DNA from: a plasmid
Reading direction: 5' to 3' (one strand)
Sequence record: NZ_CP029448.1
DNA length: 64,000 nt
Shown here: positions 8,750 through 21,926 of the stretch, one piece after another
How positions within the stretch are numbered: position 1 is the stretch's first letter
How the letters are laid out: every line of letters begins with the position of its first letter
Position numbers and translations under genes: made by a program
Notes under the pieces: model-generated
Database searches by the model: none
Told to the model about the DNA's origin: nothing
Seen by the model: the letters and a program-made list of their open reading frames with translations, nothing else

Positions 8750-9810
8750 TCGATGAGTTGCCGCCCTACCTTGAAAACGCGAGCACTACTGTCATCGGCG
8801 GCGGTACGCTGGCTACCGTGAGCACCTACACACTCAGCTGCCTGATGAGCGCCGCTCTGGAGTTACCGCGTTGCTGCATTGTGATTGCCAACCTATCCGG
8901 CAGCTATGTGGCTCAGACCAAGGCAATTGCCGAAGCAATCTCTAACCTCCAGCAAGAAGCCAGTCGCCAAGCGAGCACCATCACCCCCGTGCAGTTGGCG
9001 GGTACCTGTTCATCCCTAGCGCCTCTCCGCCTTGATGCTGGCAGATTCAGTCTGGCCTCGCGGTTCGACCTACCGAAATATCGGCGGTTACATTGTCCCC
9101 AGAGCTTCAGACCCGGCTGTTACCGGCCACGCCTGTCTGGGTAGGGAACGAGTGGTGGAACAGTCGGTTCCGTCGGGCGTTAACCTGCGGAACAGAAACC
9201 CATGCGACTTTCAGGTCGCACTGCCGAAATAATACTGGTTTCCCTTCTTGGTCTGGTGCATTTCCGGGTCGCGCTTGCCGTCCTTGTTCTTGGTCGAACT
9301 GGGCGCATTGATCAGCGTTGCATCGACGATGGTGCCCTGGCGCAGCGACAGGCCGCGGTCGCCCAGAGCCATTGATGACAGCGAGGATGCCGGCCGCCAG
9401 CTCGTGTTTCTCCAGCAAGCGGCGGAAGTTGAGAATGGTGGTTTCGTCGGGGATGCGCTCCAGGTTCAGCCCGGCAAACTGGCGCAGGATCGTGGTTTCG
9501 TACAGCGCTTCCTCCATCGCTGGATCGCTGTAGCCGAACCAGTTCTGCAGCAGATGCACACGCAGCATCGCCATCAACGGGTAGGCCGGACGGCCACCTT
9601 CACCCTTCGGATAATGTGGCTCGATCAAAGCAATCAAGCCCTTCCACGGCACCACCCGATCCATCTCGATCAGGAACAACTCCTTGCGGGTTTGCTTGCG
9701 CTTGCCAGCGTACTCGGCGTCGGCGAAGGTCATCTGCTTCATCGGGAAACTCGGTGGGTGGAATCCGGGTATTTTGCCAAAATCTGGAAGTCTTCTTCAG
9801 AGTTTCCCTA
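8750..9810 (-). mobile_element. degenerate IS5-family (ISKpn26-like) element, copy 1
   Basis: Transposase N-terminus MKQMTFADAEYAGKRKQTRKELFLIEMDRVVPWKGLIALIEPHYPKGEGGRPAYPLMAMLRVHLLQNWFGYSDPAMEEALYETTILRQFAGL on the minus strand. It is frameshifted after ILAVING and continues in another frame ([38 protein letters not shown]). Distal part is decayed, and the 8750 boundary is approximate. Confidence 0.5.
9107..9742 (-). pseudogene. IS5-family transposase, frameshifted
   Basis: See previous entry. First about 125 aa are intact. Confidence 0.6.
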
Positions 9811-9814
9811 GTGT

Positions 9815-9852
9815 GGGGTTTGAGGGCCAACGATGTAAAAAACCACGTTAAT
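9815..9852 (+). repeat. Tn3-family left terminal inverted repeat
   Basis: Read directly from the sequence. Confidence 0.85.
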
Positions 9853-10012
9853 AGGTTAACCTATTGTTTTATTTTAATTATTAGGTGCTGCATTTACAGC
9901 TACTCCAATGATCATGGGGCTGATGGTCGATGGAACGCAATACCAAGTAGATTGATTGCATAAAGTTCCTTCAATTCCGATCTGCCCTCCCGTTTTCACA
10001 TCCTACTTCAGT

Positions 10013-12079
10013 TCAATTTTGTTGCCATTCCTTTACAACAGCTTCCCAATTGGCCGTTCTCTCGACCAATTTCCCATCAGCATCCTTTCTTGTCCAAACA
10101 TCCCAGAAATCAGGGTCATCAGAATGGGGTTGCTGCTCTTTCGTCAAATTTTTCATTTTAACTAAGACAGGAAGTTCAGATGCCCAGCCCATCAGTATTG
10201 CATGTTGAGATGGCAATGAAGGCAATTCACGGAGTAATCCTCGCAAATTGTCGGGTACCATTTTATGAACTTGCTCCTGATCTTTGTCATTGCTAATTCG
10301 ATGCAGAAGAAAAGTATTACATTGAGATAAAACTGTAGGTGATAATTCTGATGGTCGTTGCGAAGAAATAACCATACCGAGACCAAATTTCCTGCCTTCT
10401 CGTGCAATTTTCTCAAATACTTGACAGCAAACAGCTGCGACATCCTGATTTTCACTGTCCTCACGATACCGTTTAATAAATGTATGTGCTTCTTCAGCAA
10501 CAAGTACCGTAGGTAAAGATTTGTTATATAGTCGTCTATAACGTTGCAATGATTCAAAAATAATTCTTGAAATGACAGCTGTCACAAGATGAGTAATTTC
10601 AGTTGGTACTAAAGAAAGATCAATAATTGAAACGCAGCTATCACCATCACCATCTTTCCCAATATATGTTTCTAACCAATTAGCCAAGTCAACTCTATGC
10701 TCTGAGTCATTGGTTATGGGTTTCATTCTTGTATCCGCAAGCATTGTGCGTATTCTAGCTACTAGATATTCAACATATTGCTCGCTACCATTTTCTTGTG
10801 CTAACGCCTCTAAATAGGAGACTAAATTATTTCCGTCAAAAGGGACGGGGATATCCTCGTTTTTAGGAAGGAGTTCACACTCATCGCCTCCAAGGCTCTG
10901 AAATGAAGATAACACTCCATTTATGATGTTATCAACTGCGCTAACTTTAGCATTGTAATCTGGATATCTGCCTTCTCTTTGCCCACAAAAATCTTGAATA
11001 GAGATGATTAATTTATCTAGCTCAGGGCATGGTGTAGTTAATCTCGCTTTGTATTCTTCCAGACTCTGACGCCAAATATTAATTTTAGCCAAAAGATTTT
11101 TGGCTCCAGGGAAATCATTAAGTGCCGCTGCTCCTTTAGATTTATCCGCTTTTAAAGAAACCAAAATTGTACCTAGGTATTTTTTAACTTCTATATCTAT
11201 ATTCTTTTGTAAATCAAATTCTTCATTTCTCATTGCTCTCAAGGAGCGTTTTAGTAATGGAAGTTGTGCTTTAGGACTTGCTTGCGTGAATGATGCCCAC
11301 TCCGAACTATTCCAAAACCATGAGGGTACTTGTAATTGGTTTTCACTGCCTTCAGCCTCAACCTTAAATACTCTACCTTTAAATTTCGTCGTTGGCCCCA
11401 AAGCACGTGCATACTCGCCGTTGGGGTCTAGGATGATAAATCTGGCATTTGGTTTTATTTGTGATTCCAATGCAGATTCGAGTGACCACTGGATTAATCC
11501 AGATACAGAGCAAGACTTACCGCTACCAGTATTTCCGAGCACTGCTATATGACGACCAAATAATCTATCAGGATCTACAGCTACATTTGCATTGTTCGCA
11601 AGTGGACTTTGTCCAATGATCACTCGCCTATTATTTCCAGATTCGACTATTGATCTAAGTTGTAAATCTGTCGGTAGTAAAATAGCAGCCCCAATAGAAG
11701 GAAACGATTCAGAACCTCGTTGAAATCTGAAATAATCAGTACCATCTTTGGACAAACGTTTAAGCATTCCCACCGGATTCAAACTTATTTTTTTTCGGGG
11801 GAATGGTAGATTTACTAAACCAAATTCTTGAACATCTCTTTGTTTTGGATAAGGCGAATGTTCTACAGCAAGCCACTCTATTTGCCCAACTAAGTAACCA
11901 TTATCACATGATATTAATACATAACTGTTTACTCTTGGAAAGTTTCTAGGCGTTCCTGCATTCAAAGCAACAGTATCAGGTGAGTCAATCTCTAATATTG
12001 CTCTAATTTCATTAGGTGAAACAAAATCTACAGTGCCGACCCTGAGTTGCTCACCTTGTTCAATCGGAAATGAGTTCAT
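10013..12079 (-). CDS. herA: HerA-like ATPase of the Sir2-HerA anti-phage system
   Basis: Walker A GNTGSGKS, Walker B LVAEEAH, 688 aa. Overlaps the upstream SIR2 gene by 4 bp (ATGA). AT-rich. Confidence 0.75.
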   Translation of the reverse strand: MNSFPIEQGEQLRVGTVDFVSPNEIRAILEIDSPDTVALNAGTPRNFPRVNSYVLISCDNGYLVGQIEWLAVEHSPYPKQRDVQEFGLVNLPFPRKKISLNPVGMLKRLSKDGTDYFRFQRGSESFPSIGAAILLPTDLQLRSIVESGNNRRVIIGQSPLANNANVAVDPDRLFGRHIAVLGNTGSGKSCSVSGLIQWSLESALESQIKPNARFIILDPNGEYARALGPTTKFKGRVFKVEAEGSENQLQVPSWFWNSSEWASFTQASPKAQLPLLKRSLRAMRNEEFDLQKNIDIEVKKYLGTILVSLKADKSKGAAALNDFPGAKNLLAKINIWRQSLEEYKARLTTPCPELDKLIISIQDFCGQREGRYPDYNAKVSAVDNIINGVLSSFQSLGGDECELLPKNEDIPVPFDGNNLVSYLEALAQENGSEQYVEYLVARIRTMLADTRMKPITNDSEHRVDLANWLETYIGKDGDGDSCVSIIDLSLVPTEITHLVTAVISRIIFESLQRYRRLYNKSLPTVLVAEEAHTFIKRYREDSENQDVAAVCCQVFEKIAREGRKFGLGMVISSQRPSELSPTVLSQCNTFLLHRISNDKDQEQVHKMVPDNLRGLLRELPSLPSQHAILMGWASELPVLVKMKNLTKEQQPHSDDPDFWDVWTRKDADGKLVERTANWEAVVKEWQQN

Positions 12080-13467
12080 TCAGCATCCTCGCTATTATTT
12101 GAAATTGTTGTACGATATAAACCCCTTGATTTCAATAGTTCTGCCATACGAATTGATGATCTGTCTATCGCTGCTTTAGGAAGATAAAAATCCACTAAAT
12201 TCTTGATATCTCCAAAGTGGTCACCAAGTAATAAAGATATTTGAGCTTTTCTTCCACTTTCGTTTACAAAGCGCATAATTCTACCGAGTGGATCGCCGTA
12301 GGCAATTATTACTATATGCGTTGAGGGTATTGTCAGCATGTCAATAATAACACGGTTTATATGTTCATCTCCAAAACTATAACCATATGTTACCAAAGTA
12401 CTATTAGGACGACATGTTGCAGATGCTAAGTCTCTGAATAGTTCAACATAAGGGTATTCTGATGTTTCTCGGTCTTTAACCGAGTTTGGATAAATCATTA
12501 ATTGATGATAGTTCGCTGCTCCAGCAGCCTCCACTTGTAAAAAGGGTTCCACCGAACTCGCACCAAAAGGTAATCCAAATCGCCTTATGGCTCCTTCGGT
12601 AGTATACCAGTCCAATGAGCCATGTAATTTAGTAAAGCGCGCCACACCTTCCAAATATCTTGGTTCACCACGAATACCCGGTGGATTATAATGATAGTCG
12701 ACTTCTAGTCGCGAAGATCTGAAAATAGGCGCTATAGTACCAACAAATCTGTCAATTAGTCGAATACCTGCTATTTCAGCTCCTGCTTCAATTATCCTGT
12801 CGTAATTCGTCGTGAAAATATGTAATCGATCCCTTGTCGCTGTTCGACTTGAAAAACTCATCAAAAAACTTACTAAATAATTAAACGTTTGTGTTTTTAA
12901 ATCGTTTTTTGCATCGCGAATTAACTTTTCCCCATTACTAACTGAATCTGAGAATAATTTCAAACATCTTGTTAGCTCATTATTTAACTCAACTAACTCA
13001 CTTTTTAAATTTCGATATGGGAGAGCACCAGGAGGCGGTTCTGGAAGTGGGAGATTTTGCGCAGTTAAAATCTCTAATCCTTTAATTAACTCATTAATTG
13101 AACGGATTTGGTCTTCAATATTACCTCTTCCTCTTCCTGAGGCTTCAGCTGTTTTAGCTACATAACTATCTATTTCAGCCTTGCAAACTTTGAGATCATT
13201 AATCCATCCCATGCCTTGAGGTTTCGTGCCTGTCGCTGACTCTTGGATTGCTGAACTAAGTCCCGCGCCAATAAGTATATTTAGGTGTTCAGACTGAAAA
13301 AGAGCAGTTAACCAAGGTTCTATTCTTAAACGCAAAAAATCAGGAGTGATTTTATCTCCTGGTTTTGCCCATGAGCAGTGTCCAACAACTTTAAATGCAC
13401 CAACTTCGCTGTGTGGATCCAACTGAACCGGAGACTGGTCATCTCCAAGCTTTAAGTATTGACTCAC
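12076..13467 (-). CDS. SIR2-family (NADase-type) protein of the Sir2-HerA anti-phage system
   Basis: Motifs NILIGAGLS, TTNYDRIIE and YGYSFGDEH are typical of defense-associated SIR2 domains. 463 aa. Confidence 0.75.
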   Translation of the reverse strand: MSQYLKLGDDQSPVQLDPHSEVGAFKVVGHCSWAKPGDKITPDFLRLRIEPWLTALFQSEHLNILIGAGLSSAIQESATGTKPQGMGWINDLKVCKAEIDSYVAKTAEASGRGRGNIEDQIRSINELIKGLEILTAQNLPLPEPPPGALPYRNLKSELVELNNELTRCLKLFSDSVSNGEKLIRDAKNDLKTQTFNYLVSFLMSFSSRTATRDRLHIFTTNYDRIIEAGAEIAGIRLIDRFVGTIAPIFRSSRLEVDYHYNPPGIRGEPRYLEGVARFTKLHGSLDWYTTEGAIRRFGLPFGASSVEPFLQVEAAGAANYHQLMIYPNSVKDRETSEYPYVELFRDLASATCRPNSTLVTYGYSFGDEHINRVIIDMLTIPSTHIVIIAYGDPLGRIMRFVNESGRKAQISLLLGDHFGDIKNLVDFYLPKAAIDRSSIRMAELLKSRGLYRTTISNNSEDAE

Positions 13468-13474
13468 TTTGAAT

Positions 13475-14044
13475 TCATCCTTCGTTAGAGTTAATAGCTG
13501 TTTTTCTTTTCAGCCTAAAATAGGTCGCCCTTGATATACCCGTTTTTTCCATTACTTCCTTAACTTGTACGTCCTTATTAATCAATTCATTAGCTAATTC
13601 AGCCTTCTTGTGAGGCTTTCTTCCGAATTTGACCCCCTTAATCATAGCGGTCTTCCGCCCATCGTTAGTTCGCTCCAAGATCCTTTCTCGTTCCGCCTCG
13701 GCAACAGCTGCTAGTATCTGGATAACCATTTTTCCCATTGTGCCTTCAGTACTAAGACCATTCTCTAGAAATCGGATAGCGATGCCTTTTTTATAGCAAG
13801 TATCCACAATACGAATCATATCAGCGGTATTACGTCCTAGACGATCCATTTTAGTACAGAGGATGATGTCATCTTTCTCCGCTCTGGCAAGGAGTCTCTG
13901 TAGCCCTGCACGCTCATCAGTTGCTCCTGACATCATGTCAGTAAATACACGATCATCCCTCACTCCCGCTGTTTTGAGTTCAGTAATCTGGCTCGTCAGT
14001 TTCTGATGGCTGGTTGATACTCTTGCATATCCTAATAATGCCAT
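13475..14044 (-). CDS. tnpR: serine recombinase / resolvase TnpR
   Basis: MALLGYARVSTSHQ... has the catalytic Ser motif. C-terminal HTH. Confidence 0.9.
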   Translation of the reverse strand: MALLGYARVSTSHQKLTSQITELKTAGVRDDRVFTDMMSGATDERAGLQRLLARAEKDDIILCTKMDRLGRNTADMIRIVDTCYKKGIAIRFLENGLSTEGTMGKMVIQILAAVAEAERERILERTNDGRKTAMIKGVKFGRKPHKKAELANELINKDVQVKEVMEKTGISRATYFRLKRKTAINSNEG

Positions 14045-14203
14045 TTTGGTCTCATAAATCGATATTGATACTGCGTAGTATCATAAGGTATAAATCGCGA
14101 TTTTTGATACTAATGTATGATGCCGTTTTGAGCAGTCTCACAATTTATAATATTTGAGACGGTTAAAAAAAGGACAGAACTCCCGTTTACGAAAGGATGC
14201 GCA
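14045..14203. promoter_or_regulatory. res site region with divergent tnpR/tnpA promoters
   Basis: AT-rich intergenic region between divergent tnpR and tnpA, containing short TATCATA/TGATA-type repeats. Confidence 0.5.
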
Positions 14204-17200
14204 ATGAGTGATGACTTTCTTACCAGCGAACAGACAGAAAACTACGGTCGCTATGTGGCAGACCCAAATGAGGTTCAGCTGGCTCGGTATTTTCATCTGG
14301 ATGAGCGTGACCTTGCTTTTATTAATCAGCGACGGGGAAAACATAACCGGCTGGGGATTGCACTTCAGCTGACTACGGCGCGCTTTCTGGGAACGTTTCT
14401 TCCTGATCCCCTTCAAATTCCCTCATTCATCCGTTTTTACATTGCGGCACAGTTGAACATCAGCCGACCAGAGATCCTTTCCCGGTATGCTGAAAGAGAA
14501 AATACCCGCTGGGAGCATCAGGGGCTTATCAAGCTCTATTATGATTATCATGATTTTGGTGATTTCCCCTGGACATTCAGACTGAAGCGTTTGCTCTATA
14601 CTCGCGCCTGGCTCAGCAATGAGCGTCCAGGTCTGCTGTTTGATTTTGCTACCGCATGGTTGCTGCAAAATAAGATCCTGCTACCCGCAGCCTCGACTCT
14701 GACAAGGCTGATTGGCGAAGTACGCGAACGGGCAAGTCGACGATTATGGCGAAGGCTGGCTTTGTTGCCTGACAGCTGGCAGAAAACACAACTGGACGGT
14801 TTACTTGAAATACCTGAAGGGCAGCGTATATCGGTGCTGGAGGAGATGCGAAAAGGTCCTGTCACTATCAGTGGGCCGTCATTTACAGACGCCCTGGAGC
14901 GATATACCCGACTGCGTAGCATGGAGTTTTCCCGGTTGAATTTCTCCGGTCTGCCTGCCATCCAGCTGCGGAATTTGGCCCGTTATGCCGGAATGGCTTC
15001 GGTGAAATACATTTCAAGAATGCCTGACGAACGGCGACTGGCCGTGCTTACTGCGTTTGTGAAAGCACAGGAAATTTCGGCGCTTGACGAGGCCGTGGAT
15101 GTGCTGGATATGCTTATTCTGGATATCACGCGTTCTGCAAAAAATATCGGGCAGAAAAAGCGGCTCAGGACCCTGAAAGATCTTGATCGTGCCGCGCTAT
15201 TACTGGCACGGGCATGCACGTTATTACTTGATGAGAACACCGATGAAGCAGCTCTGCGGCAGGCTATTTTTCGCCGCATACCAAAGGACAAACTGGCTGA
15301 ATCCGTCGGCAAGGTAAATGAGCTGGCGCGCCCGCAAGATACTCAGTTTCAGGATGAAATGGTGGAACAATATGGACGGGTGAAGCGTTTCCTGTCCGCG
15401 ATGTTGCGTGACTTACACTTTCAGGCCGCCCCGGCCGGGGAGCTCACGTTGTCAGCAATCCATTATCTGGCCGAACTGAGTGGCTCAAAAAAGCGAATTC
15501 TCGACGATGCACCAGAGCAAATCATTTCCGGCCCATGGAAACGTCTGGTCTACGACAGAGATGGTAGGATTCTACGAGCGGGTTACTCGCTGTGTCTTCT
15601 CGAGCGCCTTCAAGATTCTTTGCGCCGTCGTGATCTCTGGCTGGAGAACAGTGATCGGTGGGGGGACCCGCGTCAAAAATTGCTTCAGGGAGCTGAATGG
15701 CAGGCACAACGCATCCCGGTATGTCGGGCGCTGGGTCATCCATCAGACGGAACTAAAGCAGCAGAACAACTGGCTACGCGGCTTGATGACACATGGAAAT
15801 CAGTGGCTTCACGTTTTGCCTGCAACGCAGCGGTCAGCATAAGCAATGAAGGTAAGCATCCCTCACTGACGATTAGCAGTCTGGATAAACTGGATGAGCC
15901 ACCGGCACTGATACAATTGAATCGTCGGGTAAGAGAATTGATCCCTCCGGTTGATCTGACGGAGCTGTTGCTTGAAATAGATGCCCGAACCGGTTTTACC
16001 CGCGAATTCAGCCACGTCAGTGAATCAGGTGCTCGGGCGCAGGATCTCCAGGTCAGTCTGTGCGCAACACTGCTGGCAGAAGCCTGCAATATAGGGCATG
16101 AACCCCTGATAAAGCATAATATTCCCGCGCTTACTCGCCATCGTCTGAGCTGGGTTAAACAAAATTATCTCAGGGCAGAAACGCTGGTCACCGCTAATGC
16201 ACGGCTGGTTGATTTTCAGTCCACGCTGCCGCTCGCGGGGTACTGGGGAGGTGGTGAGGTTGCCTCCGCAGATGGTATGCGTTTTGTCACACCGGTTAAA
16301 ACGGTTAATTCCGGACCAAATCGTAAATACTTTGGTTCAGGACGCGGTATCACCTGGTACAACTTCGTCTCCGATCAATACTCCGGTTTCCATGGCATTG
16401 TAGTTCCCGGGACGCTTCGTGATTCCATCTTTGTACTGGAAGGGCTTCTGGAGCAGCAGACCGGGCTGAATCCGGTAGAAATTATGACGGACACGGCAGG
16501 ATCCAGCGATATCATTTTTGGCCTGTTCTGGTTACTGGGCTACCAGTTTTCCCCTCGTCTGGCCGATGCAGGCGGGGCGATATTCTGGCGGGCAGATAAA
16601 ACGGCACATTATGGTGCCCTGAATGAGCTGGCCCGGGGATGTGTTGAACTGTCAAAAATAGAATCCCAATGGGATGAAATGATGCGAATGGCGGGCTCAC
16701 TGAAGCTTGGGACCATCCATGCATCAGAGCTTATTCGTTCACTGTTGAGAAGTAGCCGACCATCTGGTCTGGCTCAGGCGATTATGGAAGTGGGCCGGGT
16801 CAACAAGACGTTGTATCTTCTCAACTATATCGATGATGAGGATTACCGGCGTCGGATCCTCACTCAGCTCAACCGGGGAGAAGGACGCCATGCAGTGGCT
16901 CGAGCCATTTGCTACGGACAACGTGGTGAGATTAGAAAACGCTACCGTGAAGGGCAGGAAGATCAACTCGGTGCTCTGGGTCTGGTGACCAATGCGGTTG
17001 TGCTGTGGAATACACTTTACATGCAGGAGGCGTTGTCACATCTTCGCAAATCGGGGGAAACACCTGAAGAGGAGCATCTGGCAAGATTATCGCCGCTGAT
17101 ACATGGCCATATAAATATGCTGGGACATTATACGTTTTCGTTACCGGAAGATATTCTGAAGGGCGAGTTAAGACCATTAAATTTGAATACAAACAATGAA

Positions 17201-17212
17201 TTAACCTCTTAG
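14204..17212 (+). CDS. tnpA: Tn3-family transposase TnpA
   Basis: 1002 aa. The stop lies within the terminal IR, as in Tn3/Tn21-like elements. Confidence 0.9.
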   Translation: MSDDFLTSEQTENYGRYVADPNEVQLARYFHLDERDLAFINQRRGKHNRLGIALQLTTARFLGTFLPDPLQIPSFIRFYIAAQLNISRPEILSRYAERENTRWEHQGLIKLYYDYHDFGDFPWTFRLKRLLYTRAWLSNERPGLLFDFATAWLLQNKILLPAASTLTRLIGEVRERASRRLWRRLALLPDSWQKTQLDGLLEIPEGQRISVLEEMRKGPVTISGPSFTDALERYTRLRSMEFSRLNFSGLPAIQLRNLARYAGMASVKYISRMPDERRLAVLTAFVKAQEISALDEAVDVLDMLILDITRSAKNIGQKKRLRTLKDLDRAALLLARACTLLLDENTDEAALRQAIFRRIPKDKLAESVGKVNELARPQDTQFQDEMVEQYGRVKRFLSAMLRDLHFQAAPAGELTLSAIHYLAELSGSKKRILDDAPEQIISGPWKRLVYDRDGRILRAGYSLCLLERLQDSLRRRDLWLENSDRWGDPRQKLLQGAEWQAQRIPVCRALGHPSDGTKAAEQLATRLDDTWKSVASRFACNAAVSISNEGKHPSLTISSLDKLDEPPALIQLNRRVRELIPPVDLTELLLEIDARTGFTREFSHVSESGARAQDLQVSLCATLLAEACNIGHEPLIKHNIPALTRHRLSWVKQNYLRAETLVTANARLVDFQSTLPLAGYWGGGEVASADGMRFVTPVKTVNSGPNRKYFGSGRGITWYNFVSDQYSGFHGIVVPGTLRDSIFVLEGLLEQQTGLNPVEIMTDTAGSSDIIFGLFWLLGYQFSPRLADAGGAIFWRADKTAHYGALNELARGCVELSKIESQWDEMMRMAGSLKLGTIHASELIRSLLRSSRPSGLAQAIMEVGRVNKTLYLLNYIDDEDYRRRILTQLNRGEGRHAVARAICYGQRGEIRKRYREGQEDQLGALGLVTNAVVLWNTLYMQEALSHLRKSGETPEEEHLARLSPLIHGHINMLGHYTFSLPEDILKGELRPLNLNTNNELTS

Positions 17213-17245
17213 CGTGGTTTTTTACATCATTGGACCTCGAACCCC
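17208..17245 (-). repeat. Tn3-family right terminal inverted repeat
   Basis: Reverse complement matches the left IR at 36 of 38 positions. Confidence 0.85.
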
Positions 17246-17520
17246 AGTGTGCGCTCTCTTGCTTGGATGGCATTACGTTCTGGCCCAACGTTACTGTAGC
17301 GAATCCGCAGCAGTATCAATCAAAGCCTCCTGTATCCCGCGTGAAGAAAGACGCTACGTTGCGCCCGTTCTTCCACGGCTTCGCTTGCCGCCCCGCTACG
17401 GCAGATTCGAAGTATTCATCGAAATGTCATCCTTTAGAAGCAGTGCGGTAACAAGGAATTTCTATCCTTTGCATCGCGAACCGCAATTGTGCGGCCAGCA
17501 ATATTGCGAAAGGTGATCAA

Positions 17521-21926
<4,406 letters not shown>

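What the first reader, a model, noticed from the sequence alone, without database searches (positions are those of the whole stretch)
9810..17250. Tn3-family transposon with clean IRs and TSD carrying a Sir2-HerA anti-phage module as cargo
**Seen in the sequence**
- 38-bp terminal inverted repeats at 9815-9852 and 17208-17245, matching at 36 of 38 positions. Both end in the Tn3-family GGGG.
- The tnpA stop codon sits inside the right IR.
- The identical pentamer AGTGT lies on both outer flanks, so this was a simple and probably recent transposition.
- The backbone is tnpR, res and tnpA, with tnpR and tnpA divergent.
- Cargo lies between the left IR and the tnpR 3' end, the position bla occupies in Tn3.
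- The cargo is two translationally coupled genes (ATGA overlap).

**Interpretation**
- First cargo gene is a SIR2-like protein (motifs GAGLS, TTNYD, YGYSFGDEH).
- Second is a HerA-like ATPase (Walker A GNTGSGKS, Walker B VAEEAH). Together this is the Sir2-HerA NAD-depleting defense architecture.
- The cargo is far more AT-rich than tnpA, so it was captured from elsewhere.

A Sir2-HerA system riding on a 7.4 kb Tn3-family unit would be a directly mobilisable defense island.
Basis: partly seen in the sequence, partly recalled or inferred. Interest (0 to 1): 0.8.

Follow-up and report, generated by a model that had tools for sequence, protein, structure and literature searches.

The report
Tn1000-like transposon carrying SIR2-HerA defence genes
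This is an intact, recently inserted 7.4-kb jumping gene, related to the classical gamma-delta transposon, that carries a two-gene module predicted to be anti-phage, and identical copies sit at many different sites in plasmids of clinical and environmental enterobacteria.

Summary
Window 9815-17245 is a 7431-bp Tn3-family unit transposon. It has 38-bp GGGG-ended inverted repeats (33/38 matching, not 36/38) and a 5-bp AGTGT duplication. Gene order is IRL-herA-sir2-tnpR-res-tnpA-IRR.

- **Insertion:** The uninterrupted target site, with one AGTGT, occurs in 587 plasmids, 10 of them at 100% identity.
- **Mobility:** The element occurs full-length in 79 plasmids. Eight sampled copies with intact ends all sit at different sites.
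- **Backbone:** It is not Tn5403-like (TnpA 30% identical). It is Tn1000/gamma-delta-like (TnpA 82%).
- **Cargo:** It matches PADLOC SIR2 and HerA models over most of each model (517 and 820 bits). The catalytic Asn/His and the Walker A/B residues are invariant in 75-77 homologues. dN/dS is about 0.06. It is a subtype far from every solved or tested SIR2-HerA, so defence is inferred.
- **Origin:** Only the two ORFs plus 15 bp upstream were captured, apparently from marine Gammaproteobacteria. They lie 7 nt behind tnpR, so they are probably co-transcribed with it.
- **Sibling elements:** These carry a second, unrelated SIR2-HerA or a TIR+SLATT pair in the same slot.

A close relative was published in 2018 as an anonymous "Tn3-like transposon" with two hypothetical ORFs. 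Verdict: real, a new member of known kinds, of moderate interest.

The parts
9810..9814 (.). Left copy of the 5-bp target-site duplication AGTGT
   Evidence: Read directly. The joined flanks carrying a single AGTGT occur uninterrupted in 587 plasmids.
9815..9852 (+). Left 38-bp terminal inverted repeat (IRL), GGGGTTTGAGGGCCAACGATGTAAAAAACCACGTTAAT
   Evidence: It matches IRR at 33 of 38 positions. It resembles the Tn1000 IR GGGGTTTGAGGGCCAATGGAACGAAAACGTACGTT.
9853..10012 (.). Non-coding transposon left end between IRL and the herA stop codon
   Evidence: It is not homologous to the marine non-transposon SIR2-HerA loci. The whole 9815-10012 left end, this stretch plus IRL, is 82-100% identical in sibling copies.
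10013..12079 (-). herA-like ATPase gene, 688 aa, Walker A GNTGSGKS (182-189), Walker B VAEEAH (527-532)
   Evidence: Pfam DUF87/HerA 80 bits. PADLOC HerA PDLC04098 820 bits, covering 4-685 of 686 model positions. Solved HerA chains up to E 7e-49. The motifs are invariant or nearly so in 75 homologues.
12076..13467 (-). SIR2-family gene, 463 aa, GTG start, 4-nt ATGA overlap with herA; putative catalytic N221 and H369
   Evidence: Pfam SIR2_2 32 bits. PADLOC SIR2 PDLC04079 517 bits. PDB 8j4u/8sxx E. coli Sir2 E 1e-21. TTNYD and H369 are invariant in 77 homologues. The Asn/His dyad is described in PMC11514289.
13475..14044 (-). tnpR serine resolvase gene, 189 aa; its stop codon lies 7 nt upstream of the sir2 start
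   Evidence: Pfam Resolvase 135 bits. 48% identical to gamma-delta resolvase, with the YARVS serine at position 10. Junction sequence.
14045..14203 (.). res region between divergent tnpR and tnpA. The site I candidate AGTCTCACAATTTATAATATTTGAGACGG lies at about 14134-14162. TGATAC/GTATCA half-site pairs lie at 14066-14083 and 14105-14120.
   Evidence: It aligns with the Tn1000 res. The site I assignment rests on my recollection of the published gamma-delta site I sequence. The hybrid element L016 switches parent at this core.
14204..17212 (+). tnpA Tn3-family DDE transposase gene, 1002 aa; stop TAG lies inside IRR
   Evidence: Pfam DDE_Tnp_Tn3 509 bits and DUF4158 182 bits. NCBIfam transpos_Tn3 1123 bits. 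82% identical to Tn1000 TnpA.
17208..17245 (-). Right 38-bp terminal inverted repeat (IRR)
17246..17250 (.). Right copy of the 5-bp target-site duplication AGTGT

Best explanation
Window 9815-17245 is an intact 7431-bp unit transposon of the Tn3 family, in the Tn3/Tn1000 (gamma-delta) subgroup. It inserted by transposition into the spacer between an IS5-family remnant and the phnC/ptx phosphite-uptake operon of a Klebsiella/Raoultella-type plasmid, and duplicated AGTGT on insertion.

- **Transposition (inferred from the family).** TnpA acts on the 38-bp IRs to make a cointegrate. TnpR then resolves the cointegrate at res.
- **Passenger module.** Downstream of tnpR, in the slot that holds bla in Tn3, sits a promoter-less two-gene SIR2-HerA module. 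Only the two ORFs and 15 bp of upstream sequence were captured, from a low-GC, marine-gammaproteobacterium-like source.
- **Expression (inferred).** sir2 starts 7 nt after the tnpR stop codon, behind an AAGGA Shine-Dalgarno sequence. The module is therefore most likely transcribed as a tnpR-sir2-herA operon from the resolvase-controlled promoter in res.
- **Function (inferred by homology).** The HerA hexamer and SIR2 oligomer form a complex that, on phage infection, hydrolyses NAD+ and aborts the infection.
- **Evolution.** The tnpR+cargo half and the tnpA half are shuffled between related transposons by recombination at res.
For: **Anatomy**
- The IRs, TSD, ORFs and gene order are as described.

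**Insertion event**
- The empty site, with one AGTGT, is present in 587 plasmids, 10 of them at 100% identity.
- This exact junction is absent from all 72,556 PLSDB plasmids.

**Mobility**
- 79 plasmids hold a full-length copy.
- Eight sampled copies with intact ends lie at eight different sites in Klebsiella, Enterobacter and Citrobacter. Three of these copies are base-for-base identical to the window element. Three have intact 5-bp TSDs: TTTAT, TATTA and GTATA.
- Full-length copies occur in 32 of 5426 complete E. coli genomes.
- The exact SIR2 and HerA protein sequences are each seen on at least 1000 contigs.

**Backbone**
- TnpA is 82% identical to Tn1000 TnpA.
- res aligns with gamma-delta res.
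- My IR search returned 5981 bp for Tn1000 in F, the length I recall as published, which is a control on the method.

**Cargo identity**
- Pfam, PADLOC and PDB all hit SIR2 and HerA.
- SIR2 is immediately followed by HerA in 79 of 79 loci across many phyla.
- N221 and H369 are invariant in 77 SIR2 homologues. K188 and E530 are invariant, and E529 nearly so (74 of 75), in the HerA homologues. The Asn/His dyad and HerA-dependent NADase activation are shown experimentally for SaSir2-HerA (PMC11514289).
- dN/dS is 0.059 for both cargo genes between two transposon-borne types.

**Capture**
- Homology to non-transposon marine loci (75-87% aa) spans only window 13482 to about 10010.
- An 86-bp deletion relative to type 2 elements fuses the tnpR 3' end to the sir2 Shine-Dalgarno sequence.
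- No terminator-like site lies on the minus strand between tnpR and herA.

**Shuffling at res**
- L015 has identical cargo with a 74.5%-identical tnpA. L016 has 89%-identical cargo with a 99.2%-identical tnpA.
Against: - No experiment exists on this subtype. The nearest solved SIR2 is only E 1e-21, and the aligned core shares a minority of identical residues.
- NCBIfam's anti-phage equivalog models score far below their cut-offs: 118 against 500 bits for SIR2, and 227 against 850 for HerA.
- Five of the eight sampled copies lack matching TSDs, so some copies have been rearranged after insertion.
- The simple promoter scan found no strong sigma-70 match in res for tnpR, and weak matches exist inside sir2. 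An internal promoter therefore cannot be excluded.
- Co-transcription with tnpR, and resolvase control of the cargo, are inferences from spacing and from gamma-delta/Tn3 biology.
Confidence: 0.8

Rival explanations
1. The SIR2-HerA module mainly serves the mobile element rather than the host. It would act against competing plasmids, phage-plasmids or incoming conjugative DNA, or it would stabilise the carrier plasmid by killing cells that lose it or are invaded. Anti-phage protection would then be secondary.
For: The element lives almost entirely on plasmids: 1080 of 1104 places in E. coli genomes are on plasmids. The cargo stays linked to tnpR through backbone swaps. Sibling transposons also carry abortive-infection-type cargo.
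Against: Homologous SIR2-HerA pairs sit in chromosomal, non-transposon contexts in more than 70 genomes across phyla. Characterised SIR2-HerA systems are reported as anti-phage (PMC11514289). There is no antitoxin-like third gene.
Confidence: 0.12
2. The element is a dead relic. It is no longer able to transpose and has spread only by carriage on plasmids and by homologous or IS26-mediated rearrangement.
For: Five of eight sampled copies lack matching TSDs. The IRs differ at 5 of 38 positions. IS-interrupted copies exist.
Against: Eight sampled copies lie at eight different sites, and three have perfect TSDs. Matches end at the IR tips to within a few chance flank bases. The window copy has a perfect TSD and a 100%-identical empty site elsewhere. 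tnpA and tnpR are full-length, with dN/dS below 0.09.
Confidence: 0.05
3. The two cargo genes are not an immune system. They would be a DNA-repair or DNA-processing HerA machine with a regulatory sirtuin, carried passively.
For: HerA also matches the archaeal DSB-repair HerA models weakly.
Against: The best hits by far are defence-type SIR2 and HerA profiles. There is no NurA, Mre11 or Rad50 partner. The SIR2 catalytic dyad is the NADase type. The pairing SIR2 then HerA is strictly conserved.
Confidence: 0.03

Closest known systems
Tn1000 (gamma-delta) of the F plasmid
   Same: The architecture is the same: IRL - passenger - tnpR - res - tnpA - IRR. TnpA is 1002 aa and 82% identical. The IRs are similar 38-bp GGGGTTTGAGGGCCAA... 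repeats. res site I has a conserved TTTATAATAT core. The passenger lies immediately downstream of tnpR on the same strand.
   Different: TnpR is only 48% identical. The passenger is unrelated: Tn1000 carries one 698-aa P-loop protein, while this element carries SIR2+HerA. Lengths are 5981 and 7431 bp. tnpA is 74% identical at the nucleotide level.
Unnamed 'Tn3-like transposon' of IncX3 blaNDM-4 plasmids (pEncl-44578cz, pEnas-80654cz; Paskova et al. 2018, PMC6048247)
   Same: It has the same gene order and the same cargo family. sir2 and herA are 89-90% identical at the nucleotide level and 94% at the amino-acid level. tnpR is 93% identical. It has 38-bp IRs and a 5-bp TSD.
   Different: It is 7517 bp long. 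Its tnpA is only 77% identical at the nucleotide level (86% aa). It has a 76-nt spacer between tnpR and sir2, which the window element has lost by an 86-bp deletion. Its sir2 start codon is TTG rather than GTG. The paper called the two cargo genes hypothetical proteins.
Characterised SIR2-HerA (Gao et al. 2020 system; E. coli Sir2-HerA PDB 8SXX/8J4U; S. aureus and Paenibacillus Sir2-HerA)
   Same: It is a two-gene SIR2 then HerA operon. SIR2 has a Rossmann core with the Asn/His dyad. HerA has an N-terminal barrel region and a RecA-like ATPase with Walker A/B motifs.
   Different: It is a distant subtype. SIR2 is 463 aa against 415, and only residues 178-407 align (E 1e-21). HerA is 688 aa, and its central region of about 190 aa does not align. 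It scores below the NCBIfam equivalog cut-offs. No experimental data exist for it.
Tn3/Tn2/Tn1 (blaTEM transposons)
   Same: They belong to the same subgroup (TnpA 64% identical). The passenger occupies the same slot downstream of tnpR. Hybrids are generated by recombination at res.
   Different: Their passenger is a beta-lactamase gene, which as I recall has its own promoter. Here the passenger is a promoter-less defence pair.
Tn5403
   Same: It is a Tn3-family element with 38-bp IRs that is common on the same clinical plasmids.
   Different: It has no passenger genes. Its TnpA is 965 aa and only 30% identical, and its TnpR is 30% identical. It is not the backbone here.
Tn7-like transposons with defence cargo (Benler et al. 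2021, PMC8649781)
   Same: These are also transposons that carry anti-phage systems as cargo.
   Different: Their transposition machinery is unrelated (TnsABCD/TniQ, site-specific). They are large multi-system cargo islands, whereas this is a minimal replicative unit transposon with one system.

Membership tests
Tn3-family unit transposon (Tn3/Tn1000 subgroup) | Large (about 1000 aa) DDE transposase of the Tn3 type | tested here: met
   PF01526 at 509 bits over 1-389 of 389 positions, plus DUF4158. NF033527 at 1123 bits against a cut-off of 500. 82% identical to Tn1000 TnpA.
Tn3-family unit transposon (Tn3/Tn1000 subgroup) | About 38-bp terminal inverted repeats beginning GGGG | tested here: met
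   33 of 38 positions match, and these are the only two copies in the window.
Tn3-family unit transposon (Tn3/Tn1000 subgroup) | 5-bp target-site duplication and an identifiable empty site | tested here: met
   AGTGT flanks both ends. The empty site occurs in 587 plasmids. Other copies carry TTTAT, TATTA, GTATA and GTATT.
Tn3-family unit transposon (Tn3/Tn1000 subgroup) | Serine resolvase and a res site between divergent tnpR and tnpA | tested here: met
   Resolvase domain at 135 bits, with S10 present. res aligns with gamma-delta res at site I, and a hybrid breakpoint falls there. Subsites II and III are inferred from TGATAC inverted pairs only.
Tn3-family unit transposon (Tn3/Tn1000 subgroup) | Replicative transposition through a cointegrate | not testable with these tools
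   Support is indirect only: eight sampled copies lie at eight different sites. A sibling element has copies on three plasmids of one strain.
   TnpA is 30% and TnpR 30% identical to the Tn5403 copy in pKPN-068.
SIR2-HerA anti-phage system | SIR2-domain protein with the catalytic Asn/His dyad | tested here: met
   PF13289 at 32 bits. PADLOC SIR2 PDLC04079 at 517 bits. N221 and H369 are invariant in 77 homologues. The dyad is defined in PMC11514289.
SIR2-HerA anti-phage system | HerA-type ATPase with Walker A and B motifs | tested here: met
   PF01935 at 80 bits. PADLOC HerA PDLC04098 at 820 bits over 4-685 of 686 positions. The motifs are invariant or nearly so in 75 homologues.
SIR2-HerA anti-phage system | The two genes are adjacent and co-oriented as one operon | tested here: met
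   They overlap by ATGA. SIR2 is followed directly by HerA in 79 of 79 related loci.
SIR2-HerA anti-phage system | Membership of the curated NCBIfam anti-phage equivalogs (NF042942, NF042943, NF042944) | tested here: not met
   118 bits against a 500 cut-off for SIR2. 227 against 850 and 188 against 800 for HerA. This is a different subtype from those curated sets.
SIR2-HerA anti-phage system | SIR2:HerA supramolecular complex, HerA-activated NADase, and protection from phage | not testable with these tools
   This needs biochemistry and plaque assays. No solved structure is close.

The most novel reading that the evidence does not exclude
The Tn1000-like clade of Tn3-family transposons is a dedicated carrier of immune modules.

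- **A swappable slot.** The slot just downstream of tnpR has been filled independently by two unrelated SIR2-HerA subtypes and by a TIR+SLATT pair. In Tn1000 itself it holds an uncharacterised 698-aa ORC/Cdc6-like P-loop protein, which would then be a new defence gene sitting on the F plasmid.
- **Wiring.** Most of these modules are promoter-less and are transcribed with tnpR. Immunity would therefore be under resolvase autoregulation.
- **Shuffling.** Resolvase-mediated crossover at res site I shuffles immune modules among transposase backbones, much as gene cassettes are shuffled in integrons.
Probability: 0.3. Interest if true: 0.65.

Novelty: new member of a known kind. Interest (0 to 1): 0.45.

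Why it matters
**What it shows.** A minimal, self-mobilising 7.4-kb unit can move a complete predicted abortive-infection system between plasmids and chromosomes of Klebsiella, Enterobacter, Citrobacter, E. coli, Salmonella and Serratia. This happens on the same replicons that carry NDM, OXA-48-like and KPC carbapenemase genes.

**Practical relevance.** This matters for phage therapy of carbapenem-resistant Enterobacterales, because phage resistance could spread together with drug-resistance plasmids.

**Relevance to immunity research.** It bears on how defence systems spread outside classical defence islands.

**Annotation.** Elements so far labelled "Tn3-like, two hypothetical proteins" gain a functional reading.

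**A testable generalisation.** Tn1000-like transposons may use the tnpR-proximal slot for immune cargo.

**What is not new.** Neither the transposon type nor the defence family is new, and standard defence finders would flag these genes.

Tried and rejected
- **Tn5403 backbone.** I fetched Tn5403 from pKPN-068 and compared the proteins. Identity is 30%, so this is rejected.
- **A cargo-less version of this backbone.** The only tnpR hit without sir2 (H144) is an IS5 truncation, not a natural cargo-less element. H71 runs across the record origin. I found no passenger-free sibling.
- **Tn1000's passenger as a decayed HerA.** There is no similarity.
- **Phage origin.** No megablast match to 50,697 phage records.
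- **Literature.** No held paper combines Tn3, SIR2, HerA and transposon. Other term combinations gave nothing on point. The E. coli defence-island survey lists SIR2-HerA but discusses Tn7-like and GInt elements, not Tn3.
- **Element name.** The pT-OXA-181 paper, which might name the element, is not held. The p30860-tetA search found no useful paper. TnCentral and ISfinder could not be queried, so a Tn number may exist.
- **Promoter scan.** The promoter and terminator scan was uninformative: 14 promoter-like sites against 12.3 expected.
- **Structure prediction.** Not attempted. Only window sequences or homologous-protein hits may be submitted, and a single-sequence model would be poor.

Full report

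Yes. The sequence shows GGGG-initiated 38-bp inverted repeats at 9815-9852 and 17208-17245, flanked on both sides by AGTGT. The repeats match at 33 of 38 positions, not the 36 reported. A 33-nt IR pattern with up to 3 mismatches finds only these two sites in 64 kb, against 0 expected in shuffles.

The ORFs are as described:
- herA at 10013-12079 (-), 688 aa.
- sir2 at 12076-13467 (-), 463 aa, with a GTG start.
- tnpR at 13475-14044 (-), 189 aa.
- tnpA at 14204-17212 (+), 1002 aa.

The tnpA TAG stop at 17210-17212 lies inside IRR. sir2 and herA overlap by ATGA. All the quoted motifs are present. The cargo is 38.7-38.8% GC (GC3 0.26-0.27), against 51.4% (GC3 0.50) for tnpA.

**2. Is it a transposon that inserted here?**

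I joined 600 bp of each flank, keeping one AGTGT, and searched PLSDB. The uninterrupted target occurs in 587 plasmids, 10 of them at 100% identity. It lies between an IS5-family remnant and phnC of a ptx/phn phosphite operon. No plasmid in the collection carries this particular junction. This is therefore a simple insertion, and recent relative to the sampled plasmids.

The element itself is present full-length in 79 plasmids. 25 listed single-piece matches round to 100.0% identity, and the alignments start and stop at the IR tips to within a few chance flank bases.

I fetched eight copies with intact ends from Klebsiella, Enterobacter and Citrobacter plasmids of different replicon types (IncF-type, IncX3 and Col-type).
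- All eight sit in different flanks.
- Three are base-for-base identical to the window element.
- Three have perfect AT-rich 5-bp duplications: TTTAT, TATTA and GTATA.
- Five do not have matching duplications, which indicates later rearrangement.

Full-length copies occur in 32 of 5426 complete E. coli genomes, almost always on plasmids. The exact SIR2 and HerA proteins are each recorded on at least 1000 contigs, under generic names only.

**3. Which transposon?**

It is not Tn5403. TnpA and TnpR are each only 30% identical to those of the Tn5403 copy in pKPN-068, and Tn5403 has no passenger genes.

The backbone is Tn1000 (gamma-delta)-like:
- TnpA is 82% identical to that of Tn1000 in F, over 1001 of 1002 residues, and 64% identical to Tn3/Tn2 TnpA.
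- TnpR is 48% identical to gamma-delta resolvase, with S10 in place.
- The res region aligns with gamma-delta res. The site I equivalent is AGTCTCACAATTTATAATATTTGAGACGG at about 14134-14162. Two TGATAC/GTATCA inverted pairs lie towards tnpR.
- As a control, my IR search gave 5981 bp for Tn1000 in F, the length I recall as published.

**4. What is the cargo?**

*Profile and structure hits*
- Pfam gives SIR2_2 and HerA/DUF87.
- PADLOC gives SIR2 PDLC04079 at 517 bits. It gives HerA PDLC04098 at 820 bits, covering 4-685 of 686 positions.
- Against solved structures, SIR2 reaches E. coli Sir2 (8J4U/8SXX) at only E 1e-21, over residues 178-407. HerA reaches E 7e-49, with its central region of about 190 residues unaligned.
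- NCBIfam's anti-phage equivalogs score far below their cut-offs.

The pair is therefore a member of the broad SIR2-HerA family, but of a subtype distinct from those studied experimentally.

*Conservation across genomes*
- A scan of one genome per species found 79 loci with relatives (46-100% aa identity) from Gammaproteobacteria to Acidobacteriota, Firmicutes, Planctomycetota and a methanogen.
- In every locus SIR2 is followed directly by HerA.
- Across these homologues, TTNYD (N221) and H369 of SIR2 are invariant, as are Walker A K188 and Walker B E530 of HerA. E529 is conserved in 74 of 75.
- The Asn/His pair is the catalytic dyad, and HerA binding switches on the NADase, in the S. aureus system (PMC11514289).
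- Between the two transposon-borne types, dN/dS is 0.059 for both genes. The module is therefore under strong purifying selection while it rides the transposon.

**5. Where did the cargo come from, and how is it wired?**

Tn3-family genes flank only the copies that are at least 92% identical (Serratia, Cedecea, and a broken copy in Shewanella profunda). The nearest non-transposon relatives (75-87% aa) are in marine Gammaproteobacteria: Vibrio, Shewanella, Marinomonas, Oleispira, Marinospirillum and Glaciecola. This fits the low GC content.

Nucleotide homology to those loci runs only from window 13482 to about 10010. That is the two ORFs, 15 bp upstream including the AAGGA Shine-Dalgarno sequence, and almost nothing downstream. 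No native promoter was captured.

In the commoner "type 2" relatives a 76-nt spacer separates tnpR and sir2. The window's "type 1" has an 86-bp deletion that remodels the last codons of tnpR and leaves 7 nt between the tnpR stop and the sir2 GTG. No terminator-like site intervenes.

My inference is that tnpR-sir2-herA is one transcript from the tnpR promoter in res. In gamma-delta and Tn3 this promoter is repressed by resolvase, according to established knowledge of those elements. This was not tested here.

**6. Modular evolution.**

Segment-wise comparison shows that tnpR+sir2+herA behaves as one module. Between types 1 and 2 it is 89-93% identical at the nucleotide level, with dS 0.3-0.5. 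tnpA ranges from 74% to 99%.
- p30860-tetA has the window's cargo and tnpR at 99.95-100%, with a 74.5%-identical tnpA.
- A Raoultella plasmid has type 2 cargo with a 99.2%-identical tnpA. Its sequence switches parent at the site I core.

This is the same res-mediated hybrid formation described for Tn1/Tn2/Tn3. herA is itself mosaic in some copies.

**7. Sibling elements.**

I sampled other TnpA relatives and found further passengers in the same slot:
- A 7183-bp element with perfect 38-bp IRs that carries KTSC + HerA (586 aa) + SIR2 (397 aa). This is a different SIR2-HerA subtype (PADLOC 04093/04105), only 25% identical to ours in the SIR2 core. It is present in 11 plasmids, including three plasmids of one C. 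freundii strain.
- A 5259-bp element whose IRs are almost the same as ours, carrying a ThsB-like TIR protein and a DUF4231/SLATT protein. It is present in 31 plasmids.
- Tn1000 itself, with a 698-aa ORC/Cdc6-like P-loop protein that weakly hits PADLOC candidate families.
- Elements carrying an SMR efflux gene, and elements carrying blaTEM-1.

In all of them the tnpR-proximal passenger is co-oriented with tnpR. The TIR gene of the 5259-bp element, further from tnpR, lies on the opposite strand.

**8. What is known, and what is new?**

A type 2 relative was published in 2018 as an unnamed "Tn3-like transposon" of IncX3 blaNDM-4 plasmids. It was described with 38-bp IRs, tnpA, tnpR, "two ORFs encoding hypothetical proteins" and a GTACC duplication (PMC6048247). 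RefSeq already labels the genes "SIR2 family protein" and "DUF87 domain-containing protein".

I found no held paper that links a Tn3-family transposon with SIR2-HerA. I could not query TnCentral or ISfinder.

Both components are known kinds, and defence cargo on transposons is established for Tn7-like elements (PMC8649781). I therefore rate this a new member of known kinds. The pattern across the clade is the more interesting lead.

**9. Verdict.**
- The mechanism is shown for structure, insertion and mobility by comparative evidence.
- The mechanism is inferred for NAD+-depleting defence and for co-transcription with tnpR.
- Interest is 0.45.

Noticed in passing
L006:4303-6399 (F plasmid NC_002483, inside Tn1000): Tn1000 (gamma-delta) carries an unannotated 698-aa P-loop protein 15 nt downstream of tnpR, in the slot that holds SIR2-HerA here. 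Its N-terminus matches Pfam ORC-CDC6-like at a borderline score. It weakly hits the PADLOC candidate families PDC-M36A (E 2e-11) and PDC-M28C. It may be an unrecognised defence gene on F.
   Followed up: partly
L101:866-8048 (C. freundii p48846_IncFII, NZ_CP070540.1): A 7183-bp sibling transposon with perfect 38-bp IRs (TnpA 71% identical) carries KTSC + HerA (586 aa) + SIR2 (397 aa). This is a different SIR2-HerA subtype, so the acquisition was independent. It is in 11 plasmids, including three plasmids of a single strain.
   Followed up: partly
L099:1852-7110 (K. quasipneumoniae pRHBSTW-00138_3, NZ_CP058133.1): A 5259-bp sibling transposon has IRs nearly identical to the window element's. 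It carries a ThsB-like TIR protein and a DUF4231/SLATT protein next to tnpR. It is full-length in 31 plasmids.
   Followed up: partly
window 9107-9742 and 17521-19208: The transposon sits 270 bp upstream of phnC/ptxA of a plasmid-borne phosphite/phosphonate uptake operon (phnC, phnD, ptxD), next to a truncated IS5-family transposase gene. It may separate the operon from upstream signals. tnpA reads towards the operon.
   Followed up: no
L001, L007, L008, L010, L013 (five of eight sampled copies with intact ends): Five of eight copies have non-matching 5-bp flanks. This suggests frequent post-insertion inversion, deletion or recombination between copies, as expected for intramolecular replicative transposition.
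   Followed up: no
L017:682-2745; L064:8389-10446; L069:7666-9723: herA is mosaic among copies. In some elements much of herA is only about 80-86% identical while sir2 stays at 89-93%. This indicates recombination inside the cargo with other SIR2-HerA alleles.
   Followed up: no
L069 (Shewanella profunda DSM 15900, NZ_JAKILG010000004.1): A copy of the tnpR-sir2-herA module (TnpR 95%, SIR2 92% identical) lies in a marine Shewanella genome with sir2 split by insertions. This fits a marine origin for the capture event.
   Followed up: no
L100 (C. portucalensis NZ_CP055090.1): A blaTEM-1 transposon whose TnpA is 82.7% identical to the window's, rather than the 64% seen for Tn3/Tn2. Its two IRs differ at 9 of 38 positions. 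It is probably a Tn1000-like/Tn2 hybrid formed at res.
   Followed up: no
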